A stretch of 42,748 nucleotides of DNA, taken from the IMG/VR virus record IMGVR_UViG_2695420651_000024; one strand, written 5' to 3'. This document shows positions 333 to 42,279 of this stretch, piece by piece. The position numbers were made by a program, and so were the translations under genes. Every line of letters begins with the position of its first letter. Position 1 is the first letter of the stretch. The stretch is from a virus (lineage: Duplodnaviria > Heunggongvirae > Uroviricota > Caudoviricetes). Below the pieces are notes generated by a model. It did not search any database. It saw only the letters and a program-made list of their open reading frames with translations, and was not told where the DNA came from.

Positions 333-384
333 ACTACGAGCTCTCGTAGTGTTAAACGTTATGGTGAAATTAGTGAAAATGTAG
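1..384 (+). CDS. Tail fibre protein, C-terminal tail-collar domain (5' end outside window)
   Basis: Frame open from base 1: [48 protein letters not shown]...HTILDHAHY, identical to the C-terminal part of the 3160..3933 fibre. Followed by a tfa gene. Confidence 0.6.
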   Translation, partial: PPTGWLKCNGAAFSAEEYPELAKAYPTNKLPDLRGEFIRGWDDGRGIDTGRALLNWQPHTILDHAHYMELWTGDGLAAGSAREGVNPGILATYGDGGIVKTDEPGLNVPSSLRALVVLNVMVKLVKM

Positions 385-436
385 GTACAGAAACTCGTCC
401 TCGTAACATCGCTTTTAATTATATCGTAAGGGCCGC

Positions 437-1042
437 ATGATGAATAAAGCTGTATTAAATAGCGAACTCATCACCACAAAGGCGGGAGACATTACCGTTT
501 ACAATTATGATGGTGAGACACGGGAATATATTTCCACATCAACTGAATATCTTGCTGTGGGTGTCGGTATCCCGGCATGTTCCTGTTTAGATGCTCCTGG
601 CTCATATAAAGCTGGTTATGCAATTTGCCGTTCTGCAGATTTTAACTCATGGGAATATGTGCCAGACCATCGCGGTGAAACGGTCTATAGCACTGAAACA
701 GGAGAATCAAAAGAAATCACAGCTCCGGGTGATTACCCTGAAAATACAACCACTATCGCTCCATTAACGCCATACGATAAATGGGATGGTGAGAAATGGG
801 TGACCGATACTGAGGCACAGCATAGCGCAGCAGTCGAAGCGGCAGAAGCACAGCGTCAGTCACTGATTGATGCTGCAATGGCTTCCATTAGTCTGATTCA
901 ACTGAAATTACAGGCCGGGCGGAAGCTGACGCAGGCAGAAACAACCCGGCTTAACGCTGTGCTGGATTACATTGACGCGGTGACTGCAACAGATACCAGC
1001 ACCGCGCCGGATGTCATCTGGCCTGAACTGCCGGAGGCGTAG
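437..1042 (+). CDS. tfa: Tail fibre assembly protein (Tfa)
   Basis: 201 aa; typical Tfa C-terminus ...TAPDVIWPELPEA; directly downstream of the fibre gene. Confidence 0.75.
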   Translation: MMNKAVLNSELITTKAGDITVYNYDGETREYISTSTEYLAVGVGIPACSCLDAPGSYKAGYAICRSADFNSWEYVPDHRGETVYSTETGESKEITAPGDYPENTTTIAPLTPYDKWDGEKWVTDTEAQHSAAVEAAEAQRQSLIDAAMASISLIQLKLQAGRKLTQAETTRLNAVLDYIDAVTATDTSTAPDVIWPELPEA

Positions 1043-1433
1043 GCCATTCAATATCTGGAGCACTGGAGATATCAACCAGTTCCAGTGCGTCCAGATAATC
1101 CAGCCATAAATTATATTGTTCCAGCTCGTCACCTTTCAGACGACCAATAGCGGCTTTACCAGGCCATTGCCTGCTATTCATGTGCTCGTTGGCTTCATTA
1201 ATAAGTTTTCCTTTTTTCAACTCTGCCAATGCAATAAGGTTTTCTTTTGATAAAGGTGGTTGCTCTGTCAAAACCGGATATCCCTCCTGATTGCTGACTA
1301 TTTTCATGCCATTATCCTGACCATCCAGTAGTGACAGCCATTCATCCGTGGTTATCTCAACAGCATCTGAAGGTGCTTTATTTAAATCGGTAAAAAAACC
1401 ATTTTCTTTTTGTGAATAGAAGTATCTGTCCAT
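1014..1433 (-). CDS. Alternative tail fibre assembly protein (Tfa') of the invertible cassette
   Basis: 139 aa; C-terminal SSAPDIEWPTPP motif; convergent with tfa and overlapping its 3' end, as in e14 tfaP/tfaE and Mu U/U'. Confidence 0.7.
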   Translation of the reverse strand: MDRYFYSQKENGFFTDLNKAPSDAVEITTDEWLSLLDGQDNGMKIVSNQEGYPVLTEQPPLSKENLIALAELKKGKLINEANEHMNSRQWPGKAAIGRLKGDELEQYNLWLDYLDALELVDISSAPDIEWPTPPAVQAR

Positions 1434-1436
1434 TTA

Positions 1437-1784
1437 TCAATCTCCAAAAGCAATCCAGTAAGCAAAAGGATTTACTCCTTGCTCAGTCACAGATGACATC
1501 AGGGAAAATTGCGATGGTGAAACAGGTAATGCTGCAAAACTAACCATTGTTGACACACCTGACCGTGCATTATCGTACGATGCAACAACACAATAATTGG
1601 TATTGCTGAAAGATATCGGCAGGGTGATATTTACAGGTGAGCCTAATGGCCCTGATGCTGATATTCCCATTTGAATGATGGTTCCATCAGGCAATTTTCT
1701 CCAGCGATTAGAACTCGGATTTCTTTTCCAGGCTGACATATCCGGTATCTGATTTTCTCCTGTACCCACATCCCTTTTCGCCGC
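1437..1784 (-). CDS. Promoterless alternative tail-fibre C-terminal segment (Sv'-like), expressed only after inversion
   Basis: Open frame (track ORF 1437..1838) with no plausible own start; it begins at the crossover site next to the invertase, the arrangement seen in Mu G / e14 P segments. Confidence 0.5.
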   Translation of the reverse strand, partial: AAKRDVGTGENQIPDMSAWKRNPSSNRWRKLPDGTIIQMGISASGPLGSPVNITLPISFSNTNYCVVASYDNARSGVSTMVSFAALPVSPSQFSLMSSVTEQGVNPFAYWIAFGD

Positions 1785-1810
1785 TTCTCCCAAACCAACG
1801 TTTATGAAAA
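1785..1810. other. Putative Pin/Gin/Hin-type inversion crossover site
   Basis: TTCTCCCAAACCAACGTTTATGAAAA matches the hix/gix/pix pattern TTnnnnAAAACCnnGGTTTnnnnAA at most core positions; lies between the Sv' segment and the invertase gene. Confidence 0.45.
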
Positions 1811-1865
1811 TGCAGAGATAACGGGCAACTGGCATCATCTCCGGTTTTTATTCAGGGGATCCATC

Positions 1866-2419
1866 ATGCTTATTGGCTATGTACGCGTATCAACAAATGA
1901 CCAGAACACCGATCTGCAACGTAATGCACTGAACTGCGCGGGATGTGAGCGGTTTTTTGAGGATAAAATCAGTGGCACTAAGTCCGACAGACCGGGGCTT
2001 AAAAAACTGCTCAGGACACTATCGGCAGGAGACACTCTGGTTGTCTGGAAGCTGGACAGGTTGGGGCGCAGTATGCGGCATCTTGTTACGCTGATAGAAG
2101 AGTTGCGTCAGCGTGGCGTGAATTTCCGAAGCCTGACTGACAGTATTGATACCAGCACCCCAATGGCCGTTTCTTTTTTCATGTCATGGGTGCCCTGGCT
2201 GAAATGGAGCGTGAACTGATTGTTGAACGAACAAAAGCTGGACTGGAAGCTGCTCGCGCACAGGGACGAATTGGCGGTCGCCGTCCCAAACTTTCATCAG
2301 AACAATGGGCGCAGGCCGGGCGACTAATTGCATCAGGCGTTCCTCGCCAGAATGTGGAGATCATCTATGATGTTGGCGTATCGACTTTGTATAAGAAGTT
2401 TCCGGTCGGAGATAAATGA
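1866..2419 (+). pseudogene. pin: Serine DNA invertase (Pin/Gin/Hin family) disrupted by a frameshift
   Basis: N-terminal MLIGYVRVSTNDQNTDLQRNAL...VVWKLDRLGRSM (catalytic Ser region) in one frame (1866..2219); C-terminal GALAEMERELIVERTKAG...GRIGGRRPKL...YDVGVSTLYKK in the next frame (2186..2419). The switch is at about 2163..2170, within ccaatggccgtttc. Confidence 0.8.
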
Positions 2420-2499
2420 AACCGTAGCACGTCGTATGCAAGAACGTGCCACGGCTGGCTGATAAGCTTGTAAAAATATTGAACAGGGAGTGGAGCATT

Positions 2500-3147
2500 C
2501 TATGAAGCTAATTTGTTTAATTTCATTTGTAGTGACTTTACTTCTTGGTCGATAATGTCGAATCCCTTATTGACAGCATCTCTTAGCTCTGCATCAATAT
2601 TTTTTATCCCTTGAGCATAATCTACCATTACATTTATTTTTGCATCATGTAATCTCTTATACATGGTTTTATCTTTGTTATTGTCTGCCATGCCAATAAG
2701 GATTTTTTCATAATCCTCAATGAGTTTGTTGTTTCCTTTAAATGATTGTATTAATGAGCGTGAATATGTGTATATGTTAATTATTGAGTCTCTAGCAGAA
2801 TCATTTAGTTTTGCAATGACATTCGCATTTTGCTCATAGAATGTGAAATTATCATCCCCTACAGGGAATGTGAGAATCAACATTTGTCCCGGTTTTATAT
2901 TATCAATGTGTGTTTTCATCCTTTTATTATATAAATTGATTAGGGTGAAAACTTCTCCCTTAACTCCTTTTAATACTGAAAGTTGTAATTCAAGGGATTC
3001 TCTTTCTGTCTCTACTTTAGACAGCTTAGCTTGTTGGGTAACTCCTTTTAGGGTAAACCATCCGCCAATAAGAGTACCAACTAGAGCTGTGAGGGAGGAG
3101 GATAACCATCCAGGTATGCTATTTAAAAGATTACTAAATTCACTCAT
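2500..3147 (-). CDS. Hypothetical membrane-anchored coiled-coil protein on a low-GC insert
   Basis: 215 aa; one N-terminal TM helix (LLNSIPGWLSSSLTALVGTLIGGWFTL) then K/E/N-rich helical region; DNA visibly AT-rich compared with flanks; sits where a tfa gene would normally follow the fibre gene. Confidence 0.5.
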   Translation of the reverse strand: MSEFSNLLNSIPGWLSSSLTALVGTLIGGWFTLKGVTQQAKLSKVETERESLELQLSVLKGVKGEVFTLINLYNKRMKTHIDNIKPGQMLILTFPVGDDNFTFYEQNANVIAKLNDSARDSIINIYTYSRSLIQSFKGNNKLIEDYEKILIGMADNNKDKTMYKRLHDAKINVMVDYAQGIKNIDAELRDAVNKGFDIIDQEVKSLQMKLNKLAS

Positions 3148-3159
3148 TATAAGTACTCG

Positions 3160-3933
3160 CTAATATTGAACGATATATATATCAGAGGAAGGCACATTAA
3201 GACCGGGTTCGTCCGTTTTAACTATTCCCCCGTCACCGTATGTAGCCAGTATTCCTGGGTTTACTCCTTCCCGTGCACTTCCTGCGGCGAGTCCGTCCCC
3301 TGTCCATAATTCCATATAGTGTGCATGGTCCAAAATTGTGTGTGGCTGCCAATTAAGCAAAGCGCGACCAGTATCAATCCCGCGACCGTCATCCCAGCCA
3401 CGAATAAATTCACCGCGTAAATCAGGCAATTTATTGGTCGGGTAAGCCTTTGCCAGTTCCGGGTATTCTTCAGCAGAAAAAGCCGCACCGTTGCATTTCA
3501 GCCAGCCTGTTGGCGGTGTGACTGAAGGCCACGGAACAGGCACACCAACAGGTAATGCAGAACCTTCTCCCAAACCAAGGTTTTCGAGAGCCGTTTGCAC
3601 AGTGCCATCCGATTTGATATCGCCAAACGGATTCTTGCGGCTCAGGTATTCAACAGCAAACCCCGATCCCAGCAATTCAACAAAACCGGGCAGATCACCA
3701 TTATCAAGCACATCCCGTTGCGTTTTGTCACTTACAAACTGGGCCAGAGCTGCAGCAATAAAGCTGGCCTGTCGAATGGCTTTGTTCACCTGCGCACTGG
3801 ATGCTTTCCCTGCTGTAAATCCGGATAAAAGCGCAGGCAACGCTTCCCATTCCTCCTGCGACATAACATTGGCATTTCGATCAGTTGCAAACGCTTTAAA
3901 GTCATTTTTCGCCATCAGAGTAATACTCCCCAT
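3160..3933 (-). CDS. Tail fibre protein with tail-collar C-terminal domain
   Basis: 257 aa; last gene of the baseplate operon; C-terminal ~110 aa identical to the left-edge fibre fragment (inverted repeat). Confidence 0.7.
3185..3516. repeat. Inverted repeat, right copy (reverse complement of 1..332)
   Basis: See left copy; the identical sequence encodes the C-terminal domain of the 3160..3933 fibre. Confidence 0.85.
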
Positions 3934-7132: not shown

Positions 7133-7687
7133 CTATGCCTTATTTATCAAAAGAAAAGTAACCGATAATATGAAAAAACCGAAAGATAACGCAATTCCTT
7201 CAAAAAGATAACGAGCGTAAACTGCCTTTTCTTTATGAAGACTTTCGATCAATTCAACAGCTTTACCATACTGAAACATATGGTATCTAAGCGTTTTAAT
7301 TTTATCACCGTAAAATAAAAAATCATGCTCTTCTTTTCGCTTATGAATAGGCATTTTTGGTATATCTTTCAGTCCCCAAGTACGCCATAGGAAAAAAAAG
7401 CACATAACAATACAAACAAAGCACAGATATGCACAAAGTATAGATAATGTTAAAAACCAATTACTCTTTAGCCCACTTTTGAAATCAACAGTCCCAAATA
7501 CAGCCAGTAGAGCAGAGGTTTCTACAGCTAAAATAGCAAGAAGGTAGTTAACTTTGTCCTCAAGACGACGATATGTTGATTTTGCTTCCTCATATCTATC
7601 TTTATAATATGACGAAATAAAATCAGCGCCTATAGTCTCAATTGCCTTTTGTTCTTCTGTTGTATCTATTGACGAACGCTTGCTCAT
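7133..7687 (-). CDS. Hypothetical multi-pass inner-membrane protein on a low-GC insert
   Basis: 184 aa; about 45-aa soluble N-terminus, two adjacent TM helices, ~60-aa loop, C-terminal TM; strongly AT-rich DNA. Confidence 0.55.
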   Translation of the reverse strand: MSKRSSIDTTEEQKAIETIGADFISSYYKDRYEEAKSTYRRLEDKVNYLLAILAVETSALLAVFGTVDFKSGLKSNWFLTLSILCAYLCFVCIVMCFFFLWRTWGLKDIPKMPIHKRKEEHDFLFYGDKIKTLRYHMFQYGKAVELIESLHKEKAVYARYLFEGIALSFGFFILSVTFLLINKA

Positions 7688-7694
7688 TTCTCAA

Positions 7695-8042
7695 TCAACC
7701 AACAACTTTCTTACACGGGAAAGAGCCAATAATTTTCGGAGCATCCATGCTGTTCTGCAACAACTGGACGTTCAGGAAACGCGTTTTAGTGCCAGGTCGA
7801 TGGATATACTCGAACCCATAATTGTTGCCATCTTTGGCAGGCATCAGGTCCATTTTGATCTGCATGCCTGTACCGTCTTTACCCAACATTTTTACTTTTT
7901 GGGACGTTACTGTTTCGCCATTGATTTTAAATAATGAATCAGGGATCGCATCCATACGAAAGTTGCCGCATTGCATCGTTATGGTGTTTGCACTTACACC
8001 AACAGACACTAATGCCAGCAATGAAAATATCCATCGTTTCAT
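7695..8042 (-). CDS. Hypothetical secreted (periplasmic) protein with Sec signal peptide
   Basis: Start at internal ATG 8042 with GAGAGG RBS; MKRWIFSLLALVSVGVSA / NTITMQCG...; two Cys in the mature part; GC lower than flanking structural genes. Confidence 0.55.
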   Translation of the reverse strand: MKRWIFSLLALVSVGVSANTITMQCGNFRMDAIPDSLFKINGETVTSQKVKMLGKDGTGMQIKMDLMPAKDGNNYGFEYIHRPGTKTRFLNVQLLQNSMDAPKIIGSFPCKKVVG

Positions 8043-8044
8043 TT

Positions 8045-9109
8045 CTATAATCCTCTCTGAAAAGCAGTGCTGGATGGCATATCCTGCGCACCGCGCGCTT
8101 CGCACATCATATCCATGTACCACGCCTGGCCCCTTGTATCGCCAGTGTACATAATCCCGCGCACAATATAAACGCCATCCGTTGCGATGCTGGCAGGCTG
8201 CGATGTGGTGCCGCTTAGCGTAATATTTCCGTCCGTGTTCTGGTCGGTGATCTGCCCACCAGCCATAGCGATATCGTTGTTCGACAACGCGGTGCGATAT
8301 ACGGAAGCCTGATCCAGTTGAATGAGCCCATTAACCCGGATGTTCGGATTAATAAGCGCGCGAACGTTTACGCCGTTGCCGATGGTCTGCTGCGGCATGC
8401 CAATAAGCCCGGTAGCGCTGTTGAGCACAATCGCTTCGTGAACATATTCATTATTCGCCACCATCTGGCGCTGACCGTCTACGAATTGCCATGTTGCGCC
8501 ACATTGCCCGGCTACGTTATCCATTAGATGCCGCGTCATGCCAAAGAGCACCCGCCCCCGGGGGAATACAGTAGCAGGCATTTCAGGCGTCAGGCCTTCG
8601 GTCGCACCTTTGGCTTCGAAGTCTTTCATCAGCGCACGGTTCACATCAGCGACCGTGTAACCGGCAGCCAGCGTCTGTGAGGTTATACTGGTGGCAAAAG
8701 CCAGATCAGTATCTGCTGCCTGAATCAGGACGTAGGAATCAACCGGACTGTCTTTTCCTGTAACCGAGTAGCGAATTTCACCGCTGAAAATCAGTCCGTA
8801 GTTGCGGCCATCACTCTGGCCCACGTCCGCCGCATCAACCTCCCGCACGATCCCGACGTCGCTTGCCGACACCTCCGGCGCGATACCGTCGTAACCCGCA
8901 ATCAGACGCACTTTCGAAAACTCCCGCCCGGTGATTCGGTTCACAGTATCTGCCGAGAGGTTATAAATTTTGATAGTCCCTACCCGGGACGCGCTGCTGA
9001 TGTTGAACCAGTCGATCGTAAAGGTCACTTTAAAATCACTTAGCTCAATTCCCTGACCGTTCCCGTCCACAAGCTGCAGCTCGAAATGTCTCATCCAGTT
9101 CTGTGACAT
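8045..9109 (-). CDS. Baseplate hub-like tail protein (Mu gp44-like)
   Basis: 354 aa; position between tape-measure-proximal genes and the gp45-like gene. Confidence 0.5.
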   Translation of the reverse strand: MSQNWMRHFELQLVDGNGQGIELSDFKVTFTIDWFNISSASRVGTIKIYNLSADTVNRITGREFSKVRLIAGYDGIAPEVSASDVGIVREVDAADVGQSDGRNYGLIFSGEIRYSVTGKDSPVDSYVLIQAADTDLAFATSITSQTLAAGYTVADVNRALMKDFEAKGATEGLTPEMPATVFPRGRVLFGMTRHLMDNVAGQCGATWQFVDGQRQMVANNEYVHEAIVLNSATGLIGMPQQTIGNGVNVRALINPNIRVNGLIQLDQASVYRTALSNNDIAMAGGQITDQNTDGNITLSGTTSQPASIATDGVYIVRGIMYTGDTRGQAWYMDMMCEARGAQDMPSSTAFQRGL

Positions 9110-29696: not shown

Positions 29697-30001
29697 TACG
29701 ATATCGCATAATTAATGCGTTTTTTAATACTGGCTCTTTAACAAACTGAACCGCGTGACAGGTAAGCCGCAGTACTCCTGGCAAAACGAAATAGCACCCG
29801 ATGGGATCGAGGTAAGCGCCGAGTCCGTATGCGTACGGTAAGCGTAGAGGACAACACCGCGACAAACTGATAAGTCACGCAAGTTGAAACGCCCCGACGA
29901 TGGGGCGCTTAGTTCCTTTTGGGGTGGGGTGAAGATCAGTCCATTGAGTCAATCCGAAGTTCAGCATCTACCACTACACCACCACCAAAGAGAACTGCTA
30001 A

Positions 30002-30526
30002 TCATCTGGCAGGTTGTAACGGTGCAGGAGTTTTGCCACTGACTTCTATATTTCGGGGAAATTTATATTCAGCGGAGCATTTATGACACTTGAGAATTTT
30101 ATAAGCGGCATTAGAAGTATGGTATTGAAGTATAGACTTCATACCCGACTCATAGCATGTAGTACAAAGATAATGAGGCTTGAACTCAGGATCGTCAGTA
30201 GGCTTCAGTACATAGACCACCGTATTGGTAATCGGGTGGTACATTTCATAGTTCATTTTCTCACTATCCCAATCCTGTTTCTTTTCCAGAAGGGATTCGA
30301 GTTCAACAATGCGCTGTTTAGCTTCGTTCAAAAGCTCCGTTAGTGCGAATTGTCCAGTACGCGCATCAATTAGTTTATCAAGTAGATCGATAGTTTTACT
30401 TTTAACATTGTAATCCACCTGCAACGCATTAACTTCTTTTGCTAAATCAACAGCACCTTTCAAAGCACCACCAGCACTAGTGGCCGCCTCAGTTATACGC
30501 CGTACAAGTCCTTTTTCTTCAGACAT
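30002..30526 (-). CDS. Hypothetical protein with N-terminal coiled coil and C-terminal C4 zinc ribbon
   Basis: 174 aa; CTTC...(x20)...CHKC; GC lower than neighbours; sits in the immunity region beside cI, antisense to the strong plus-strand promoter. Confidence 0.5.
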   Translation of the reverse strand: MSEEKGLVRRITEAATSAGGALKGAVDLAKEVNALQVDYNVKSKTIDLLDKLIDARTGQFALTELLNEAKQRIVELESLLEKKQDWDSEKMNYEMYHPITNTVVYVLKPTDDPEFKPHYLCTTCYESGMKSILQYHTSNAAYKILKCHKCSAEYKFPRNIEVSGKTPAPLQPAR

Positions 30527-33118: not shown

Positions 33119-33667
33119 ATGAAACTGAAGCTGAACAATGTTCGTCTGGCCTTCCCGTCTCTGTTTGAAGCTAAAACTGTAAACGGCGAAGGCGATCCAC
33201 GTTTCTCCGCAGTATTTTTAATGTCACCCAAACACCCACAACTGGAAGAAATCCGTAAAGCTATGAAGCAGGTAGCGAAGGAAAAATGGGGAGAGAAGTG
33301 GGAGCCCATTTATAACCAACTGGAGAAAAAACTCAATCTGTGCCTGCATGATGGTGATGAAAAAGCAGAGTATGAAGGCTTCCCCGGCAATTTCTTCCTG
33401 AATGCTGCTAACAAAGCGCGCCCAGCTGTTCTTGATCGCGATCGTTCGCCACTTATTCAGGCTGATGGACGTCCCTATGCAGGGTGCTATGTAAACGCCG
33501 TTATCGATATCTGGGCACAGGACAATAATTTCGGTAAACGCATTAATGCCTCACTAGGCGGAGTCCAGTTCCTGCGAGACGGCGATGCATTCGCTGGCGG
33601 CGGAGTGGCAAGCGCTGACGATTTCGACGATATCAGCGAAGGTGCTGATGCTGAAGCACTGATTTAA
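33119..33667 (+). CDS. DUF2815-like protein (putative ssDNA-binding)
   Basis: 182 aa; MKLKLNNVRLAFPSLFEAK... N-terminus; acidic C-terminal tail (DDFDDISEGADAEALI) as in SSBs. Confidence 0.55.
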   Translation: MKLKLNNVRLAFPSLFEAKTVNGEGDPRFSAVFLMSPKHPQLEEIRKAMKQVAKEKWGEKWEPIYNQLEKKLNLCLHDGDEKAEYEGFPGNFFLNAANKARPAVLDRDRSPLIQADGRPYAGCYVNAVIDIWAQDNNFGKRINASLGGVQFLRDGDAFAGGGVASADDFDDISEGADAEALI

Positions 33668-33719
33668 CCCTACTTCATAGACGCCCGGTTAAATACCGGG
33701 CTGCTGATTAGGCGTATAA

Positions 33720-34349
33720 TCACTCAGGAATCTTAATCTTCCTCAATTCTTTATTTAGTTCACAGATCTTCTTCTTAGACGGGAAAGTATCATACATCCA
33801 AAAACCAACAGTCTCTAAAACTATTGTCATAACCATATACACAAGATAATTTAAAAGGCCTTCATTTTGCCCTATGGAAATAATGCAGATAATAGAAAAA
33901 AGGATAAACAGCACAAAACACAGAAAGGAAAACAGACGACTAATAATAAATAAAAAACCTGAAAAATTAACATTGATGAAAAACACTCCGTTATCTTTCT
34001 CTATATAATTCTGAAGCTTAATCACCTGATTTATATACTGTCTTTTTTCTAATCTATTGCAAATGTAAATAACATCACTTCGGTTATAAGAAGATTGCAA
34101 TTTCAGCGCATCACGAATAATTTTATCATTTATTCTTTTTTCTATGGCACTCTTATCCTCCTTATCCAGATAACGTTCATACTTAACTAAATATAAAATT
34201 AACTTCTTGACATATTTAGGCTCTTTATACTTATAATTAAAAATGATCTTTCTTATCCAGACTCCCATAACAATCAAACATGAAAAAATATATCCAGCTA
34301 TTTTCTCCAGATGCTCTGTATGGTCAATCAAGTATTGGATCATATGCAT
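33720..34349 (-). CDS. Hypothetical polytopic membrane protein on a low-GC insert, opposite strand to the early operon
   Basis: 209 aa; TM near the N-terminus, K/E/Y-rich cytoplasmic region, then a long hydrophobic stretch (FSGFLFIISRLFSFLCFVLFILFSIICIISIG) and a further TM; very AT-rich DNA. Confidence 0.5.
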   Translation of the reverse strand: MHMIQYLIDHTEHLEKIAGYIFSCLIVMGVWIRKIIFNYKYKEPKYVKKLILYLVKYERYLDKEDKSAIEKRINDKIIRDALKLQSSYNRSDVIYICNRLEKRQYINQVIKLQNYIEKDNGVFFINVNFSGFLFIISRLFSFLCFVLFILFSIICIISIGQNEGLLNYLVYMVMTIVLETVGFWMYDTFPSKKKICELNKELRKIKIPE

Positions 34350-34395
34350 AATTAATCTTTTAATCAGTTAATAGAATAAAAACCAAGGTAAACAC

Positions 34396-36459
34396 ATGTC
34401 CAATATACTATGGGGCGACCTGGAAACCTATTGCGAAATCCCTATTACGAACGGTACCCATGCGTATGCCGAAGGCGTTGAAGTGATGCTGTTCGCATGG
34501 GCTATCAACGACGGGCCAGTAAACGTATGGGATATCACTGCCGGTGGTGGTATTCCACACGGCTTATACGAAGCAATCGCAGCCCCTGAAACCCTGCTTT
34601 ATTTTCATAACTCTCACTTCGACCGCACCGTCCTGCGTTATGCAATGCCGCGACTGGCACCGCCAGTCGAACGTTGGCGCGACACGATGGTGCAGGCGCT
34701 GGCGCACGGTCTCCCGGGGGCTCTGGGGGAACTCTGCGAAGTACTAGGCGTCCCGCAAGACAAAGCGAAGGACAAAGAAGGTAAAGCGCTGATCCAGCTG
34801 TTCTGTAAGCCACGCCCGAAAAACAGCAAACTGCGCCGGGCCACCAGCAAAACCCACCCGGAAGAATGGCGGCGCTTTGTTGCTTACGCCGGACTGGATA
34901 TCGAGGCAATGCGCGAAGTCTATAAACGTCTGCCGAAGTGGAATTATCAGGGGACAGAACTGGCGCTCTGGCATCGTGATCAGCAGATCAATGACCGGGG
35001 CGTCTGCATGGACGTGGAACTCGCACGCGCTGCGATCGACGCGGTAGACCAGGAACAAAAGCGCCTGGCAAAGCGTACACAGGAAATGACTGATGGCGAA
35101 GTGCAGGCAGCCACACAACGAGACGCGTTGATTAAGCACATTGTTGAATCCTACGGTGTGGAGCTACCAGACATGCAACGCAGTACTCTGGAACGTCGTA
35201 TTGCCGACCCCGATTTACCATCTGCCGTGAAAGAACTGCTGGCTATCCGCCTGCAGGCCAGTACTACCAGCACCAGTAAATACAAGGCACTGATGAAAGG
35301 CGTAAGCCACGACGGGCGCTTACGCGGTACGCTACAGTTCTGCGGGGCGTCACGTACCGGTCGTTGGGCCGGACGGCTATTCCAGCCCCAGAACCTTCCC
35401 CGCCCTTCACTAAAACAGGAACAAATAGACGAAGGCATCGAAGCACTGAAAGCCGGATGTGCAGACCTGCTGTTTGACAATATCATGGAACTAACCAGTT
35501 CAGCGTTACGTGGCTGCATTATCGCGCCAACAGGCAAAAAGCTGGTGGTAAGTGACTTGTCGAACATTGAAGGCCGTATGCTGGCATGGCTGGCGGGAGA
35601 AGAATGGAAACTGAATGCATTCAGAGAGTACGACGCCGGAACGGGTCCGGACTTATATAAACTGGCGTATGCAAAAGCTTTCGATATTGCACCAGATGAT
35701 GTTGATAAACACATGCGTCAGATCGGTAAAGTCATGGAACTCGGTCTGGGTTATGGAGGAGGTGTATCGGCTTTCATCACTTTTGCTCTGGTTTACGGTC
35801 TCGATCTCGACGGGCTGGCGAACGCCGCACTGCCAAACATTCCCCGCGATGTTATCCGCGAGGCGAAAAGCTGGTACGACGAATCGGTTAAACGTAAATC
35901 GACCTACGGGCTTTCTGAACGGGTATTTATCGCCTGCGACTCACTTAAACGTCTCTGGCGCCGGGCGCATCCCGCGACCTGTGATTTCTGGTACGAACTG
36001 GAGTGCACCGTCCGCACAGCAATCGCCACACCGCAAAAAACATTGTATTGCGGTTATCTTAAAATCCGCCGCGATGGCGCGTGGCTGCGCATACAGCTAC
36101 CATCCGGACGCGCTGTATGCTACCCGTCTCCGGTTATCGAACAAGGGAATATCACCTACATGGGTGTTAACTCTTATTCGCGTAAATGGCAACGACTCAA
36201 AACCTACGGCGGAAAGCTGGTGGAGAACGTCACCCAGGCGGCCGCCCGCGACGTTCTGGCCGGAAACATGCCGCTTATCGAAGATGCCGGTTACAGCATT
36301 GTGCTGACGGTACACGACGAGGTGATCACCGAATCACCTGACACAGAAGATTTCAACGATAAAGCGCTTTCCGCGCTTCTCTCCACTAACCCCGAATGGG
36401 CGCCAGATATCCCACTGAACGCTGGCGGTTTTGAGGCGTACCACTACCGTAAGGATTAA
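34396..36459 (+). CDS. Family-A DNA polymerase (phage PolA-like)
   Basis: 687 aa; pol motifs ([23 protein letters not shown]) and an N-terminal exonuclease-like region; RBS AAGG. Confidence 0.75.
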
Positions 36460-36464
36460 CTCCT

Positions 36465-36680
36465 ATGTCATTTAAATACCGGGACAATCCACTTTATTAC
36501 AGGGCTGCAAGGGAGGCTTTGCGACTTGAACAATCCGGCGAATATGACCGGGCAGCGAAGGTCTGGGCAAAAGCCAACCGCGAATCACATCACGAACTGA
36601 ATCAGGAATGGAGTGAACGCAGATCTGATTTTTGCCTGATGCAGAATATGCGTGAAAAGCGTAAGGCGGTCGAAGAATGA
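36465..36680 (+). CDS. Small hypothetical protein (71 aa)
   Basis: ORF only. Confidence 0.35.
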   Translation: MSFKYRDNPLYYRAAREALRLEQSGEYDRAAKVWAKANRESHHELNQEWSERRSDFCLMQNMREKRKAVEE

Positions 36681-36976
36681 TCGTTTACGTTGCCGGGCCG
36701 ATGAGCGGTTACGAGCAATTTAACCGCCCGGCCTTTCATTCCGCAGCAAAGAGGCTAACGGACAAGGGATATGTTGTGCTTAACCCCGCAACTTTACCCG
36801 ATGGTTTGACACAGGCTCAGTACATGGACATCTGCCTCGCAATGCTTCGCTGTGCCGATACGATTTATATGCTCAAAGAGTGGGAGTACTCTGCCGGCGC
36901 ACGTGCAGAAAACGCGTTGGCAGAGAAACTGGTATTGAATGTGCTTTTTGAAGAGTGGGATTCAGATGGCCTATGA
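36677..36976 (+). CDS. DUF4406-like protein (nucleoside deoxyribosyltransferase-like fold)
   Basis: 99 aa; MIVYVAGPMSGYEQFNRPAFH... N-terminus typical of this family, from memory. Confidence 0.5.
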   Translation: MIVYVAGPMSGYEQFNRPAFHSAAKRLTDKGYVVLNPATLPDGLTQAQYMDICLAMLRCADTIYMLKEWEYSAGARAENALAEKLVLNVLFEEWDSDGL

Positions 36977-37259
36977 ACGTGAAAGCCTTATCGAAAAGCA
37001 CCTCGTCGCTGAAGTGAAAAAAGCTGGCGGAGTGGCCTTTAAGTTTATATCTCCCGGTCGCCGCTCGGTACCAGATCGCATTGTTCTGCTACCCGGTGGT
37101 CGTATCGTTTTCGTTGAATGTAAAGCACCCGGCAAGCCACCACGCGCCGGCCAACTGCGTGAACACGGACGACTGCGCGCGCTGGGCTTTACCGTAGTGG
37201 TGCTGGATAGCAAAAATCTGGAGGGGATATTGTGCGGGGAGCCTATTACAACGAAATAG
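36966..37259 (+). CDS. VRR-NUC domain nuclease
   Basis: Start at internal ATG (MAYERESLIEKHLVAEVKKAGG...); ...RIVFVECKAPGKPPRAGQ matches the VRR-NUC D...E.K core. Confidence 0.65.
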   Translation: MAYERESLIEKHLVAEVKKAGGVAFKFISPGRRSVPDRIVLLPGGRIVFVECKAPGKPPRAGQLREHGRLRALGFTVVVLDSKNLEGILCGEPITTK

Positions 37260-38245
37260 ACCCTAACGCAGCACAATGGCTGCGTAACCTTATTGCTGCG
37301 GGTCATATCGCCCCGGGTGAAGTTGATGAAAGGAGTATCGAAGATGTCGCACCAGACGACTTGCGCGGATTCACACAGTGCCATTTCTTCGCCGGGATCG
37401 GCGTCTGGTCTTATGCTCTGCGTCTGGCCGGATGGCCGGATAACAAACCGGTCTGGACAGGAAGTTGCCCGTGCCAGCCTTTCAGCTCGGCTGGTAAAGG
37501 CGCTGGATTTGATGACGAGCGGCACCTATGGCCAGCGCTATTCCACCTCATCAGCGAGCGACGCCCTGAGCTGGTATTTGGCGAACAGGTTGCGGGAGTC
37601 AATGCCTGGTTCGATCTTGTACAAACTGACGTGGAAGCAGTGGACTACGCCTTTGGGCTTGTCCCGTTTCCGGCTGCGGGCGTCGGTGCCCCGCATATCC
37701 GAGATAGAGCGTATTGGGTGGCCGATGCCAGCGGCGAGCGACCACAGCGGTGGCGAAAGCGCCTCAATAGCATTGAGGAAGATGTCTGGAGATCGTCGAC
37801 CGTCCGGCAACACGCTACACAGCTCCCTGCGGGATTTTGCTCACCTGGCGGGGTGGTACACCCCAACCTGCAACACAAACCCACAGCCGGAGACAAAACG
37901 CGGTCTAGAAACCTTAGCGGGGCTATCCAGATTAGCGGGATGGCCGACAGTGACGACGGTCGACAACAACAAAGTTCGTGGCGAGGGCGCAGCGGCCAAT
38001 CATACCAAACGGGGAACGACCCTCGGCGGCCCAATACGATTAACAGCTGCTGGGATGATGCTGACTGGCTCCTCTGCCGGGATGGTCGCTGGCGGCCAGT
38101 TGAATCCGGCACATTCCCGTTGGCTCATGGGATTACCTCCAGAGTGGGACGACTGCGCGCCTACGGCAACGCGATAGTCGCACCAGCTGCCGCAACATTC
38201 ATCCGCTCGTTTATGGAATGCACAGGATACGACCTCATCTGTTGA
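37232..38245 (+). CDS. DNA (cytosine-5)-methyltransferase
   Basis: GTG start with GGAGG RBS; motif I FAGIGV, motif [15 protein letters not shown]-like [12 protein letters not shown], and C-terminal YGNAIV. A second frame (37293..38177) is also fully open; see findings. Confidence 0.7.
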
Positions 38246-38247
38246 TA

Positions 38248-39177
38248 TTATGGGTTAGGTAATGCACGATTATTAAAATTATCAATAATTTGCAACGCCG
38301 CCGTTTGTCCGCCAGCCAATAGCCCTGCTTTACTCAGAAGGTATTTAGGGAATTTGGTTGGTAAATAAACCGCACGAAGCCAGTGCCTGAATACAGCTAA
38401 AGCATTATCAGGGTATGCATAGACCATTTGGGGATTACTTGCGGATTGGTTGAATTCTTCAGGGTAATAGTGCTGGCAGCGTTGTCTTGGGCCAATCGTC
38501 GCATCGTAGTTGGAAGAAGACCAGTAGCGAGCCCAGTGCTGGCCCACACTGATATCCGGTACAGTGTACTGGTTTACTGCTAATCCAGCATGGATGAGGT
38601 CTACCATTAAACCAGCAATTTCATTGAATACAATGAAGTGTCCAGCAGGAACCGAGTTTGCCCCATGCATGATTGACACACGAGAGTGGTAATGACGCCA
38701 AGGGTCATCAGGTATGTAGCCAAGCGCTGTATAGATGTAACCACGCATACCCGCACGGGATAGCTCGCGGAAAAACTGTAGCGCAGTAGGAGTTGCAGCA
38801 CTTTGAGATACAAATGCGTAGAACTCCAGAATAGCCATACAGACTACTTCTGGGTACGCATAATGGACTGACCCATCTTTGTTGATTGGGATATAAAGAG
38901 TCGGCTCATTATATTGCTCACGCTGTAAATATGAGCTGATAAACTCCATACGCCCTCGAGCGAAAACTCCGTGGCGGAAGCTCTCTTCCCACTCTCGAGA
39001 AATATCCGCGATATTACTGCGATGCACCCCGCAAATCCTAGCCAGCCCATTTTGCGTAAGGTAGGAGATCCCGTTCTGAAGAACCCCCATTTCTATTTCG
39101 TTAAAAACCCCCTCAGTACTAACACCTAAGTCCAGTACTTGTTGGGGTGCGGGTTGCTGACCACCAAATTCACTCAT
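38248..39177 (-). CDS. Hypothetical protein with N-terminal HTH-like segment, opposite strand to the early operon
   Basis: 309 aa; NGISYLTQNGLARICGVHRSNIADISREW looks like a DNA-binding helix-turn-helix; convergent with the MTase gene and divergent from the SNF2 gene. Confidence 0.45.
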   Translation of the reverse strand: MSEFGGQQPAPQQVLDLGVSTEGVFNEIEMGVLQNGISYLTQNGLARICGVHRSNIADISREWEESFRHGVFARGRMEFISSYLQREQYNEPTLYIPINKDGSVHYAYPEVVCMAILEFYAFVSQSAATPTALQFFRELSRAGMRGYIYTALGYIPDDPWRHYHSRVSIMHGANSVPAGHFIVFNEIAGLMVDLIHAGLAVNQYTVPDISVGQHWARYWSSSNYDATIGPRQRCQHYYPEEFNQSASNPQMVYAYPDNALAVFRHWLRAVYLPTKFPKYLLSKAGLLAGGQTAALQIIDNFNNRALPNP

Positions 39178-40682: not shown

Positions 40683-40879
40683 GCGAGAAACCCGACGATT
40701 TACTCACCCCAGATGAAGTATGCCAAAAGTTAGGTATTACACAGAAAACGCTATGTGAGTGGAATATTAAGCATCGTCATCGGGCTATCCTGGCACCAAT
40801 TCGTTTCAGTGCAAAAGTAGTTCGTTATGAGCGCCGAAATGTCGACGCTTTTATTCAAAAGTGTCGCAGCCAGTATTAA
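40679..40879 (+). CDS. xis: Excisionase/AlpA-like HTH protein
   Basis: 66 aa; LTPDEVCQKLGITQKTLCEW; start overlaps the SNF2 stop; adjacent and convergent to the integrase. Confidence 0.55.
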   Translation: MSEKPDDLLTPDEVCQKLGITQKTLCEWNIKHRHRAILAPIRFSAKVVRYERRNVDAFIQKCRSQY

Positions 40880-42279
40880 CCTCGCCGCCGTAGCAATGCA
40901 ACCTGCGCAAGTATGCTCCGCTCGTGAGCCTCGAAAGCTTCGCGCTTTAACGCAATCTCTTCCTGTAAAATCTCATCAGAAAAGTCGTAATGTTCTGCCA
41001 TCGGGTCATCTGACTTGCTGGAGTGGTGAAGGCAAAGGAGGCTGATTTCCCTTCGGTCTGATCGGGAATAGCCTCTTTCCTTCATCAAGGCAATAACATT
41101 GCTCTTAAGGAATTTACGGCACATCGTATTAAATGCACCGTCTTTCCCTTTAACAGTCCCATCATGTTTTATTCCTTTTACAGCCCCGTCCGGGCTGTAT
41201 GTTTTCACCAGCTTATCCAGTGATCGTTTTGAAAATGGCTGCATTGGATCACGTGGCTGCAAAAATACATAATCCCTGTTGCACTCAGGAACTGAATCAC
41301 GCCAGGCTTTCTGCTCGTCGATAATCCGCCGAATCTCAGGCGTTATCGGCAGGCGGAAAGCCTTTTGTGTTTTCATAGCCCCTCGCATGCCGATAACCCC
41401 TTCCGGATAAACAATTTCACCAGCCTCCTCGTGAACGTAGTCCCAGCGCAGGTTATGGACATTAATCGGACGAACGCCAGTGATGATCATGAAGCGAACA
41501 GCATTCTTCTGGTGTACAGAGGTGCAGGCAGCAACATTGAGCCAGAGTCGGGCGATTGATTCAATATCGGTAAAAAGCCGTGTGGGGGTAGGTTTCTGTA
41601 CGCGGGAGGAAACATAATCATCTGGCAGACTGGCGGCAACATTGCGGCCGTTGCAAAGAGTAGGTGCGCAGAACTTCCAGAACCGACGGAGCTCGGCAAA
41701 CAACTCCAGGGCGTTATTGTTCGAGCGAGTGGCGATCCACTCGTCCAGCACTTCCACCAGCCGATTGTATGTTACGTCGCTGAACACCTCACGCTCGCCG
41801 AACGTTGCTTTAATCCGGTCGATACGCACCCCGTAGGTTGTGAAACTGTCCGGGCTCAGCTTCTGCCGGGCGACTTTGGCTTTGAGGTCATCCCGGTACA
41901 TTTCCAGCGCTGCATGTACTGACTCTGCCCGCAAGCCACAGTCAGCCATACCTAGCGCTTTTTCGCGCGCCAGCTGGATAGCGAGCTCCGGCCACTCGCC
42001 GAGCTTTTTACCCTTGAGGCCCATCTTTTTTGGAAACTCGGCGTAAAATGTAACCTTACCGGCTTTGCTGAAATCGATACGGAGATAGTTCTCTTTTTCG
42101 TATTTGGAACGGCGAGCCACGCCGGAAGCAGCGAGGATGATTTTGGCGGCAGCAACACAGATTTTCATGTGTGCGCTGGTATAGGGGGGTTTACAGGCGT
42201 CCCATTTTTCAGATGCGGCTAAAACATCGTCATTATTGGGGCTATCCGGATTATGTGTTACAGTGCGCGGCATTCTCAA
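40876..42279 (-). CDS. int: Tyrosine-type phage integrase
   Basis: 467-aa track ORF (real start may be an internal Met near 42168); C-terminal catalytic-region-like sequence; terminal position next to a host gene. Confidence 0.75.
   Translation of the reverse strand: MRMPRTVTHNPDSPNNDDVLAASEKWDACKPPYTSAHMKICVAAAKIILAASGVARRSKYEKENYLRIDFSKAGKVTFYAEFPKKMGLKGKKLGEWPELAIQLAREKALGMADCGLRAESVHAALEMYRDDLKAKVARQKLSPDSFTTYGVRIDRIKATFGEREVFSDVTYNRLVEVLDEWIATRSNNNALELFAELRRFWKFCAPTLCNGRNVAASLPDDYVSSRVQKPTPTRLFTDIESIARLWLNVAACTSVHQKNAVRFMIITGVRPINVHNLRWDYVHEEAGEIVYPEGVIGMRGAMKTQKAFRLPITPEIRRIIDEQKAWRDSVPECNRDYVFLQPRDPMQPFSKRSLDKLVKTYSPDGAVKGIKHDGTVKGKDGAFNTMCRKFLKSNVIALMKERGYSRSDRREISLLCLHHSSKSDDPMAEHYDFSDEILQEEIALKREAFEAHERSILAQVALLRRRG

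What the first reader, a model, noticed from the sequence alone, without database searches (positions are those of the whole stretch)
33720..34349. Very AT-rich opposite-strand insert encoding a polytopic membrane protein between the DUF2815 and polymerase genes
This 209-aa gene runs against the otherwise co-directional replication operon, with a hairpin (GCCCGG-TTAAATA-CCGGGC at 33684..33702) between it and the upstream gene. Its codon usage is unlike its neighbours and its product is a K/Y/I-rich protein with a long hydrophobic stretch. Together with the 2500..3147 and 7133..7687 genes it is the third low-GC membrane-protein insert in this prophage, a recurrent pattern suggesting horizontally acquired exclusion or abortive-infection cargo.
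Basis: partly seen in the sequence, partly recalled or inferred. Interest (0 to 1): 0.55.

Follow-up and report, generated by a model that had tools for sequence, protein, structure and literature searches.

The report
Swappable prophage membrane-protein cargo gene
An AT-rich gene for a small three-pass inner-membrane protein of unknown family sits backwards in a swappable cargo slot of an E. coli prophage's replication operon, and is most likely an untested anti-phage (exclusion or defence) gene rather than part of replication.

Summary
Window 33720-34349 (-) is an intact 209-aa ORF with 29.5% GC against about 51% in its flanks. It lies between a DUF2815/Enc34 ssDNA-binding gene and a family-A DNA polymerase. 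Its product has three predicted membrane helices and a 90-residue lysine-rich cytoplasmic domain.

It is not part of the replication module. Of 159 complete E. coli genomes with these flanks, 67 carry this gene. The others carry at least five other cassettes, including a SIR2 defence candidate, and the swap runs from the DUF2815 stop region to the polymerase start codon. One alternative cassette, a 199-aa gene on the same strand, is a remote homologue (hhalign 96.9%).

The family is small and confined to Enterobacterales. It matches PHROG 10579 (unknown function) and has no Pfam, PADLOC, PDB or fold match. Members also occur in P2-like and lambdoid prophages, an ICE-like element and genomic islands, nearly all with low GC. 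The same prophage carries BstA in a second antisense slot.

A published machine-learning screen (DefensePredictor, Table S10) lists this exact protein as a "predicted novel defense gene". It is not among the tested units.

An anti-phage role is plausible but unproven, and the mechanism (entry exclusion or abortive infection) is inferred.

The parts
33720..34349 (-). CDS, 209 aa (WP_000551021.1). A three-pass inner-membrane protein of an uncharacterised family (PHROG 10579).
   Evidence: ORF and RefSeq annotation. PHROG 10579 E 2e-109. Family of about 10 representatives at 50% clustering. pN/pS 0.38 against the 606R2 allele.
34239..34349 (-). Codons 1-37: short acidic/His N-tail (predicted periplasmic) and TM1 (aa 17-37).
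   Evidence: Hydropathy and charge counts. Model helix 11-37. Family conservation of Y6, H10, E12, L14 and K16 supports the long start rather than Met28.
33966..34238 (-). Codons 38-128: basic soluble domain with 20 K/R and 12 D/E, predicted cytoplasmic. Four helices plus a beta-hairpin.
   Evidence: Charge counts. AF2 secondary structure H45-56, H63-82, H90-99, H103-111, E116-125. Conserved motifs YLxKYxxYLSxEDK and NRxxLIYIxN.
33786..33965 (-). Codons 129-188: TM2-TM3 hairpin with a 4-residue periplasmic turn. R138 and intramembrane E179 are conserved.
   Evidence: Hydropathy up to 3.1. Model helices 132-160 and 165-188. R138, E179 and G182 are invariant among the closer homologues.
33723..33785 (-). 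Codons 189-209: basic C-terminal amphipathic helix. This is the most conserved motif of the family (FPxxKxIxxINxELxKxKxP).
   Evidence: N199 and L202 invariant; I195, E201 and K204 at least 90% conserved. 7 K/R, predicted cytoplasmic.
33668..34395 (.). Variable cargo slot. It runs from the DUF2815 stop codon (or the hairpin after it) to the PolA start codon, so each cassette brings its own PolA ribosome-binding site.
   Evidence: Junction comparison of window and L001-L006. Cassette counts.
33683..33701 (.). GC-rich hairpin with a 7-bp stem, 5-nt loop and no U-tract. It is shared with relatives carrying BRO-N or SIR2 cargo, so it belongs to the DUF2815 3' flank.
   Evidence: No terminator-like site.
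34373..34402 (-). Weak sigma-70-like site (TGGACA-18-TATTCT) upstream of the gene. Its -35 lies in the first PolA codons. Not above chance.
   Evidence: 3 sites found against 4.0 expected from shuffles.
33119..33667 (+). Left anchor of the slot: DUF2815 / Enc34-type ssDNA-binding protein.
   Evidence: PF10991, E 7.6e-44.
34396..36459 (+). Right anchor of the slot: family-A DNA polymerase.
   Evidence: PF00476, E 1.1e-13. RefSeq annotation.

Best explanation
The gene is a self-contained, horizontally mobile cargo gene (a "moron"). It sits in a recombination hotspot of a yfhL-integrated E. coli myovirus-type prophage, between the ssDNA-binding gene and the DNA polymerase gene and antisense to the early replication operon.

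Its product is a 209-aa inner-membrane protein. The predicted topology is N-out/C-in with three membrane helices. A 90-residue basic helical domain and a conserved basic C-terminal helix face the cytoplasm. A conserved glutamate lies inside the third membrane helix.

The most likely role is to protect the lysogen, and so the prophage, against other phages by acting at the cytoplasmic membrane. My preferred mechanism is superinfection exclusion, meaning interference with genome delivery across the inner membrane, as P22 SieA does.

Shown: the gene, its composition, its membrane architecture, its variability, its family and that family's mobile contexts.
Inferred: expression in the lysogen, the anti-phage role, and the entry-block mechanism.

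The stated confidence is for the anti-phage role with entry exclusion as the preferred mode. Confidence that the gene is variable mobile cargo and not a replication gene is about 0.9.
For: Cargo status:
- 67 of 159 flank-bearing complete E. coli genomes carry it, always as a single copy in this slot.
- Alternative cassettes occupy the same junctions: a 199-aa paralogue in 13 genomes, Nmad5 + 89-aa 2-TM protein in 32, Nmad5 + 229-aa protein in 27, SIR2 in 5, BRO-N in 5.
- The gene has diverged about as much as its flanks (97.9% against 96.2-98.7%), with pN/pS 0.38. This fits a resident, constrained gene.

Family:
- Exhaustive phmmer over 1.84 billion representatives finds only 10. A profile search finds 24 clusters, all from Enterobacterales and all named hypothetical except one, which NCBI names DUF2207 domain-containing.
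- The 199-aa cassette in the same slot and on the same strand is a remote homologue: hhalign 96.9%, E 1.6e-10 over 190 columns. Other membrane proteins used as controls score below 0.3%.
- Homologues occur in a P2-like prophage between S and V, in a lambdoid prophage upstream of Q, beside RecT, in an ICE-like element with TraG_N, in genomic islands with CbtA/CbeA or YjhX, and in the same DUF2815|PolA slot of a Klebsiella aerogenes prophage.
- Family genes have 28-34% GC (one at 40%) in hosts of 42-55% GC.

Defence context:
- The SIR2 cassette is PADLOC PDC-S25 (E 4e-158). The TIR gene in the slot after PolA is PDC-S35 (E 1.7e-109).
- BstA (E 2.5e-110) lies antisense at 38248-39177 in this window.
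- DefensePredictor Table S10 lists WP_000551021.1 with mean log-odds 6.1 (cut-off 4) as a "Predicted novel defense gene". The paralogue cluster scores 5.9 (PMC13092281).

Architecture.

[quoted passage not shown] It exists as sequence types less than 30% identical that keep the same topology and a cytoplasmic C-terminal motif (PMC10883804; P22 annotation).
Against: - No phenotype and no expression data exist.
- There is no detectable homology to SieA, SieB, any PADLOC model, any Pfam family above threshold, any PDB sequence or any solved or viral fold.
- The upstream promoter-like site is weak and no better than chance, and the Shine-Dalgarno sequence is poor.
- The DefensePredictor score rests partly on low GC and on neighbouring genes, which are the same cues used here. 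Only 45% of its tested predictions validated.
- Some slot occupants (Nmad5, BRO-N) are not defence genes, so the slot is not purely a defence hotspot.
- Xenorhabdus homologues sit at a fixed chromosomal site between an SLT gene and thrS. That suggests a housekeeping-compatible function.
- One E. coli lineage (O55:H7 DEC5B) has let the gene decay.
Confidence: 0.45

Rival explanations
1. Abortive-infection type defence. The cytoplasmic domain senses a phage product or a phage-induced state, and the TM2-TM3 hairpin, with its conserved intramembrane glutamate, then oligomerises and depolarises or permeabilises the inner membrane. The infected cell dies before phage release.
For: The cargo and defence context is the same as for the main explanation. 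The protein has a sizeable, conserved cytoplasmic domain and a conserved charged residue in TM3. A pure entry blocker would not obviously need either. The neighbouring cargo BstA is itself an abortive-infection protein (PMC8585504).
Against: There is no similarity to known membrane effectors: CBASS 2TM, PycTM and RexB-type models in PADLOC give no hit even at E<=10. There is no partner sensor gene. No toxicity data exist. The fold searches return only generic helical bundles.
Confidence: 0.2
2. A membrane protein with a host-physiology or lysogenic-conversion role unrelated to phage resistance, for example envelope stress tolerance. In this reading it is a stand-alone relative of the C-terminal membrane domain of DUF2207 proteins.
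For: Five divergent family members give sub-threshold PF20990 (DUF2207_C) matches in one consistent register (about residues 56-189 against profile 61-186), with E 0.005-0.3. NCBI names one member DUF2207 domain-containing. Xenorhabdus copies sit at a conserved chromosomal site. A DUF2207 protein of Streptococcus mutans affects stress tolerance and biofilm (PMC10457818).
Against: All the Pfam matches score 11-17 bits against a 33-bit cut-off. Their hydrophobic part could be compositional. HMMER profile searches never reached a true DUF2207 protein. Sparse, mobile, AT-rich carriage in hotspots shared with SIR2, TIR and BstA genes fits conflict genes better.
Confidence: 0.15
3. An accessory part of the prophage replication module, for example a membrane anchor for the replisome or replicating DNA, in the manner of phi29 p16.7 (recalled from my own knowledge).
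For: The gene lies between the ssDNA-binding protein and the polymerase. Two family members only 18% identical occupy this same slot in E. coli, and one does so in a Klebsiella aerogenes prophage. The soluble domain is basic.
Against: The gene is antisense to the operon. It is absent from 92 of 159 related prophages, and 79 of those have no family member at all in the slot. Homologues lie in a P2 tail-gene cluster, a lambdoid nin/Q region, an ICE-like element and genomic islands with no such replication genes nearby.
Confidence: 0.05
4. A selfish or decaying AT-rich passenger with no current function for phage or host.
For: The family is extremely narrow. The promoter and Shine-Dalgarno signals are weak. 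Frameshifted or truncated copies exist: P0002 (158 aa) and the DEC5B pseudogene. AT-rich DNA of this kind is typically silenced by H-NS in E. coli (my own knowledge).
Against: The gene is intact, and RefSeq annotates it as a CDS in every one of the roughly 50 listed carrier genomes except DEC5B. pN/pS is 0.38. Length, topology and motifs are conserved down to 18-27% identity across genera.
Confidence: 0.08

Closest known systems
P22 SieA superinfection-exclusion protein (Leavitt et al. 2024, PMC10883804)
   Same: Both are small, single-gene, prophage-borne proteins. SieA is shown to be an inner-membrane protein with three predicted TM helices. The window protein has the same predicted layout. 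Both are encoded against the direction of the adjoining lytic operon. Both exist as sequence types below 30% identity that keep the topology and a conserved cytoplasmic C-terminal motif.
   Different: No sequence relationship is detectable (hhalign probability 0.2%). SieA is 162-164 aa and lacks the 90-residue cytoplasmic domain between TM1 and TM2. SieA's function and promoter are experimentally established, and here neither is. SieA sits in the virion-gene region, not in a replication operon.
Prophage and satellite defence hotspots, such as the P2 and P4 hotspots (my own knowledge) and the prophage defence genes discussed in PMC10121019
   Same: A fixed position between conserved phage genes holds mutually exclusive cassettes, several of them defence or defence-candidate genes (SIR2 PDC-S25 here, TIR PDC-S35 and BstA in neighbouring slots). 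The cassettes are low in GC.
   Different: This hotspot lies inside the early replication operon, between the SSB-like and PolA genes, and the junctions fall exactly at the stop and start codons. It also holds non-defence cargo (Nmad5, BRO-N). I found no description of this slot in the searched literature.
DefensePredictor "predicted novel defense gene" clusters (Science 2026, PMC13092281, Table S10)
   Same: The identical protein accession WP_000551021.1 and the paralogue cluster WP_096845875.1 are listed there with log-odds 6.1 and 5.9. Both are above the cut-off of 4. Neither has homology or a Foldseek hit to known defence proteins.
   Different: This is only a prediction. The gene is not among the transcription units cloned and tested: it is absent from Table S6 (part 1 read). 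No mechanism, family analysis or hotspot description is given there.
BstA, the prophage abortive-infection protein (Owen et al. 2021, PMC8585504)
   Same: BstA is another single-gene, antisense, variable cargo gene in the same replication operon of this very prophage (38248-39177, PADLOC E 2.5e-110).
   Different: BstA has no hydrophobic segment by the hydropathy scan, matches a PADLOC HTH model, and localises to sites of phage DNA replication. The 209-aa protein is an integral membrane protein with no homology to it.
DUF2207 C-terminal membrane domain (PF20990)
   Same: Sub-threshold matches recur in one register across five divergent family members. The layout is similar: soluble helical region followed by a TM hairpin.
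   Different: Scores are 11-17 bits against a cut-off of 33. DUF2207 proteins carry an additional N-terminal DUF2207 domain (PF09972; my own knowledge, not checked here) and are not mobile cargo. Their function is unknown, so a match would add no mechanism.

Membership tests
PHROG 10579 (phage protein family, unknown function) | Significant full-length match to the family HMM. | tested here: met
   E 2e-109, residues 28-209 against profile 1-182/182. Distant homologues P0004, P0005, P0007 and P0010 also match at E 7e-65 to 3e-20. The profile lacks the conserved first 27 residues.
P22-type SieA superinfection exclusion proteins | Sequence homology to SieA types A-C, including the cytoplasmic FxRYPxEAxxFNK motif. 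| tested here: not met
   hhalign of the family alignment against P22 SieA gives probability 0.2%. The motif is absent, and the family has a different C-terminal motif.
P22-type SieA superinfection exclusion proteins | Small inner-membrane protein with about three TM helices, expressed from the prophage, that blocks DNA injection. | not testable with these tools
   Three TM helices are predicted. Localisation, expression and injection block need experiments.
SieB (PF14163) / P22 SieB | Homology to SieB. | tested here: not met
   No Pfam hit at E<=1. hhalign against P22 SieB gives probability 0.3%.
Known or candidate defence families in PADLOC-DB v2 (including CBASS 2TM, PycTM and PD-T4/T7/lambda systems) | HMM match to any model. 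| tested here: not met
   No family at E<=10 for the window protein. Across 10 family members there is a single weak hit, P0010 to PDC-S47 at E 4e-4 and 17.9 bits.
Prophage moron / hotspot cargo | Presence or absence polymorphism among otherwise syntenic relatives, with alternative genes at the same junctions. | tested here: met
   67 of 159 genomes carry the gene. There are at least five alternative cassettes with junctions at the DUF2815 stop or hairpin and the PolA ATG.
Prophage moron / hotspot cargo | Base composition deviating from the surrounding phage genome. | tested here: met
   GC 0.295 against 0.509 in the flanks. The same holds in 9 of 10 homologue loci.
Prophage moron / hotspot cargo | Own promoter and terminator, with expression from the repressed prophage. 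| tested here: inconclusive
   Only a weak promoter-like site at chance frequency, and no terminator-like site. The hairpin has no U-tract. No expression data are available.
DUF2207_C (PF20990) | Score at or above the Pfam gathering threshold of 33 bits. | tested here: inconclusive
   The window protein has no hit. Five relatives give 11-17 bits in the same register. This is below threshold, and no profile-profile tool against Pfam was available.
Holins | Match to a holin family, and a position in the lysis cassette. | tested here: not met
   Only phrog_2508 at E 0.066. The prophage has its own holin, endolysin and a further lysis-cassette gene (Rz endopeptidase in the 606R2 record) at 23518-24847.
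Replication module of DUF2800-DUF2815-PolA phages | Conserved presence and co-orientation with the module in relatives. | tested here: not met
   The gene is antisense. It is absent from 92 of 159 relatives. Homologues occur in non-replication contexts.

The most novel reading that the evidence does not exclude
The 209-aa protein and its 199-aa slot-mate define a new, fold-unassigned family of single-protein, inner-membrane anti-phage systems. The family would be diversifying inside a previously undescribed cargo hotspot between the SSB-like and DNA polymerase genes of a widespread enterobacterial prophage type. It would act through a cytoplasmic sensing or binding domain coupled to a TM hairpin that carries a conserved intramembrane glutamate.
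Probability: 0.4. Interest if true: 0.6.

Novelty: new variant of a known kind. Interest (0 to 1): 0.42.

Why it matters
If the gene protects against phages, it adds a new protein family to the short list of membrane-level prophage defences. It has no detectable relative among known exclusion or defence proteins and no fold match. It would also come with a natural pair of highly diverged alleles in the same slot for specificity mapping.

The slot itself is useful independently of this gene. The slot between the DUF2815 and PolA genes, the position after PolA (a TIR gene in relatives) and the BstA position form a compact set of variable cargo positions in a prophage present in about 3% of complete E. 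coli genomes, including ETEC H10407, IAI1 and several STEC strains. Mining the remaining occupants (an 89-aa 2-TM protein, a 229-aa protein, a SIR2 protein) is a cheap route to further candidates.

The result also gives a concrete test case for a published machine-learning prediction that has not been followed up.

Tried and rejected
- **Family libraries.** Pfam, NCBIfam and PADLOC scans of the protein gave nothing meaningful. The best hits were crAss_PVA at E 0.07, DUF350 at E 0.16 and RbsU at 18.8 bits against a 375-bit cut-off, all noise.
- **PDB sequence profile search.** Nothing below E 2.
- **Related-locus scans.** A narrower alignment found only two loci among species-representative genomes.
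- **Rfam.** No family on the whole window, so there is no known RNA element in the insert.
- **Origin of replication in the AT-rich stretch.** Rejected. The stretch is coding, and unrelated cassettes replace it in relatives.
- **Hairpin as the insert's terminator.** Rejected as insert-specific, because other cargo types share it.
- **Relationship among the prophage's low-GC membrane genes.** Rejected for 7133-7687 (hhalign probability 0.2%).
- **TraS entry exclusion.** One member gave E 0.1, which is noise.
- **Literature.** Searches for the accession, the phage name and the Brenes & Laub 2025 paper found nothing readable.
Full report
**1. The observation**

The window is an E. coli prophage. 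An integrase gene lies at 40876-42273 and the host gene yfhL at the right end. The tail, head and lysis genes are on the minus strand, and an early replication operon is on the plus strand.

At 33720-34349 on the minus strand there is an intact 209-codon ORF. RefSeq annotates it as hypothetical protein WP_000551021.1 in a 99.9% identical prophage. Its GC content is 0.295, against 0.488 and 0.543 for the genes on either side and 0.501 for the window. GC3 is 0.33, against 0.45 and 0.57.

The upstream neighbour is a DUF2815/Enc34-type ssDNA-binding protein (PF10991, E 7.6e-44). The downstream neighbour is a family-A DNA polymerase. A DUF2800 PD-(D/E)XK nuclease precedes both.

The product is rich in I, K, L and Y. 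It has hydrophobic segments at about residues 17-37, 129-160 and 165-188.

It has a 7-bp stem at 33683-33701, and the 52-nt intergenic region folds at -18 to -19 kcal/mol with z -2.5 to -3.4. It has no U-tract on either strand, and the scan calls no terminator.

**2. What the locus is: a cargo slot**

A search of 5,426 complete E. coli genomes with the 1.8-kb region found the flanks in 159 genomes. Only 67 of them have the insert. The insert alone is found in those same 67 genomes, once each, always on the chromosome.

Relatives carry other cassettes in the same place:
- a 199-aa minus-strand gene, in 13 genomes;
- Nmad5 plus an 89-aa two-TM protein, in 32 genomes;
- Nmad5 plus a 229-aa protein, in 27 genomes;
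- a 500-aa SIR2 protein, in 5 genomes;
- a BRO-N protein, in 5 genomes.

Alignment of the junctions shows where homology stops and resumes. It stops at the DUF2815 stop codon, or just after the hairpin. It resumes at the ATG of the polymerase in all but the SIR2 relative, where the first polymerase codons also differ. Each cassette therefore supplies the polymerase's ribosome-binding site. The hairpin is shared by this cassette and the BRO-N and SIR2 cassettes, so it belongs to the DUF2815 flank and not to the insert.

Three deposited phage records (vB_EcoM-606R2, 689R2 and 611R5) carry the gene at 96.7% protein identity. Against 606R2, the gene has diverged about as much as its neighbours: 97.9% nucleotide identity, against 96.2-98.7%. 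Its pN/pS is 0.38, with 8 non-synonymous and 5 synonymous changes. This is weak but consistent evidence for a constrained coding gene that has resided in this lineage for some time.

**3. The protein and its family**

The 5.8-billion-sequence word-indexed search found only the gene's own 90% cluster and fragments of it. The cluster has 456 member sequences, and the exact sequence occurs on at least 1000 contigs. An exhaustive phmmer search of 1.84 billion representatives found ten proteins, at 22-43% identity and about 210 aa. A profile search found 24 clusters. All are from Enterobacterales (E. coli, Xenorhabdus, Enterobacter, Klebsiella aerogenes), and all are named hypothetical except one, which NCBI names DUF2207 domain-containing. 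Serratia and an Enterobacterales MAG appear. All tested members match PHROG 10579, a family of unknown function.

The alignment shows:
- a conserved N-terminus (Y6, H10, E12, L14, K16), which supports the long start codon rather than Met28, where the PHROG profile begins;
- conserved motifs in the soluble region (YLxKYxxYLSxEDK and NRxxLIYIxN);
- R138 at the start of TM2, and E179 and G182 inside TM3;
- a very conserved basic C-terminal helix, FPxxKxIxxINxELxKxKxP, with N199 and L202 invariant.

Charge counts give 20 K/R in loop 38-128 and 7 K/R in the C-tail. The N-tail has 1 and the TM2-TM3 turn has none. By the positive-inside rule this gives an N-out/C-in topology.

An AlphaFold2 model built on the family alignment (pLDDT 78, pTM 0.55) agrees. 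It gives TM1 at 11-37, four short helices and a beta-hairpin at 45-125, TM2 at 132-160, TM3 at 165-188 and a terminal helix at 192-202.

The 199-aa gene in the same slot, on the same strand, is a remote homologue. BLASTP gives only E 0.003. hhalign of the family profile gives 96.9% probability, E 1.6e-10, over 190 columns. Three other membrane proteins, used as controls, give 0.3% or less. Two alleles only 18% identical therefore alternate at one locus.

**4. Contexts elsewhere**

Homologues lie in the following places:
- between tail genes S and V of a P2-like prophage;
- upstream of the Q antiterminator in a lambdoid prophage, near an HD/dGTPase-like gene;
- antisense between RecT and a PAPS-reductase-like gene;
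- next to TraG_N genes in an ICE-like element;
- at the end of a Xenorhabdus prophage remnant;
- between an SLT gene and thrS in Xenorhabdus chromosomes;
- in Enterobacter genomic islands with CbtA/CbeA or YjhX toxin genes;
- in the identical DUF2815|PolA slot of a Klebsiella aerogenes prophage.

No neighbouring gene is shared across these contexts, so the gene works alone. In 9 of 10 loci the gene is 12-25 GC points below its surroundings. This rules out a dedicated role in this replication module.

**5. Evidence bearing on function**

There is no homology to any characterised family:
- Pfam, NCBIfam and PADLOC give nothing.
- A PDB sequence profile search gives nothing below E 2.
- P22 SieA and SieB are unrelated by hhalign.

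The indirect evidence points to phage conflict:
- The SIR2 cassette of the same slot is PADLOC candidate PDC-S25 (E 4e-158). The TIR gene that relatives carry just after the polymerase is PDC-S35.
- The window itself carries BstA, a proven prophage abortive-infection protein (PMC8585504). It lies antisense at 38248-39177 (E 2.5e-110).
- Comparison with phage 606R2 shows that the prophage is a mosaic of conserved blocks and variable slots.
- The DefensePredictor study lists this exact accession among "uncharacterized clusters" in its 3,000-genome table. The mean log-odds is 6.1 against a cut-off of 4, labelled "Predicted novel defense gene", with no HHblits or Foldseek hit to known defence proteins. 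The paralogue cluster scores 5.9 (PMC13092281).

The DefensePredictor model uses low GC and neighbouring genes as features, and 45% of its tested predictions validated. It is therefore supportive but not independent of the cues used here. The gene is not among the units the authors cloned: its accessions are absent from Table S6 (part 1 read).

**6. Mechanism**

I commit to a prophage-borne anti-phage membrane protein, with entry exclusion as the preferred mode.

The closest functional analogue is P22 SieA. It is an inner-membrane protein with three predicted TM helices, encoded antisense to the neighbouring ejection-protein genes. It exists as sequence types below 30% identity that keep the topology and a cytoplasmic C-terminal motif, and it blocks DNA delivery (PMC10883804; P22 map). 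The parallel is in architecture and population genetics, not in homology.

The large conserved cytoplasmic domain and the intramembrane glutamate keep an abortive-infection (sensor plus pore) model alive.

A third option is a non-defence membrane function. It is suggested by recurrent but sub-threshold DUF2207_C matches in one register and by the fixed chromosomal copies in Xenorhabdus.

A replisome-anchor role and a functionless passenger are unlikely, for the reasons given in sections 2-4.

Expression is the weakest link. The only promoter-like site (TGGACA-18-TATTCT, 34402-34373) is at chance level, and the Shine-Dalgarno sequence is poor. One lineage (O55:H7 DEC5B) carries a pseudogene.

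**7. Novelty and verdict**

The gene is annotated as hypothetical, belongs to a PHROG of unknown function, and has been flagged by a machine-learning screen. The idea that it is a defence candidate is therefore not new.

This analysis adds:
- the definition of the slot and its cassettes;
- the remote homology between two slot-mates;
- the family's distribution, topology and motifs;
- explicit negative tests against known exclusion and defence families.

It is best filed as a new variant of a known kind: single-gene prophage membrane cargo with probable anti-phage function. Interest is moderate, and the candidate is well posed and cheap to test.

Noticed in passing
window 38248-39177 (-): A 309-aa product matches PADLOC BstA at E 2.5e-110. 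BstA is a known prophage abortive-infection protein. It lies antisense in the same replication operon, between a DNA cytosine methyltransferase (37232-38245) and the DEAD-box helicase. The segment 37214-39281 has no counterpart in phage 606R2, so it is a second cargo slot.
   Followed up: partly
window 7133-7687 (-): A low-GC (0.34) gene for a 184-aa protein with three clear hydrophobic segments. It matches PHROG 18554 (unknown function), with weak PADLOC hits to PycTM (E 2.6e-4) and the CBASS 2TM effector (E 0.007). It is unrelated to the 209-aa family. The segment 6939-7704 is replaced in 606R2. In strain 2000-3039 it is annotated as two CDS.
   Followed up: partly
window 2500-3147 (-) and 1-3600: A 215-aa low-GC (0.33) product with no Pfam, PHROG or PADLOC match and no strongly hydrophobic segment. 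It lies in or next to the Pin-invertible tail-fibre region. The window and strain 2000-3039 differ here only by inversions.
   Followed up: partly
L001 9425-10186; L005 9367-10128; window 36460-36976: Relatives carry a TIR-domain gene (PADLOC PDC-S35, E 1.7e-109) directly after PolA. The window has no such gene there. PolA is followed directly by the ANR-family gene and a DUF4406 gene. This looks like a third variable position.
   Followed up: partly
L002 2826-3095 (-); L006 6256-6945 (-): Other antisense occupants of the same slot are an 89-aa protein with two hydrophobic helices (32 genomes) and a 229-aa soluble protein (27 genomes). Each sits behind a sense-strand Nmad5 gene. Neither has a Pfam, PHROG or PADLOC match.
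   Followed up: partly
L027 (E. coli O55:H7 DEC5B) 721-1350: The 209-aa gene is split into 62-aa and 126-aa ORFs and is not annotated, so it is a pseudogene in this lineage.
   Followed up: yes
L020 (ON470579.1) 1-2254: The deposited "complete genome" of phage vB_EcoM-606R2 begins with host genes (tRNA adenosine deaminase, a phosphatase, yfhH). It ends in the helicase gene, with no integrase. It therefore looks like an excised prophage region and not a packaged genome.
   Followed up: no
window 29920-30488, including the 30002-30526 (-) gene: A 174-aa gene next to the repressor has no family match (one sub-threshold Pfam hit, CCDC22_CC, E 0.004; no PADLOC hit). It lies in another segment without a counterpart in 606R2, which carries a different 189-aa gene there.
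   Followed up: no
window 7695-8123 (-): A 142-aa ORF (annotated as 115 aa from MKRWIF...) with an N-terminal signal-like hydrophobic segment lies inside the baseplate gene cluster. It has no family match.
   Followed up: no
L004 955-1470: One relative (O121 strain 201805972) has an HNH endonuclease gene inserted between DUF2800 and DUF2815. It also has a longer PolA annotation.
   Followed up: no
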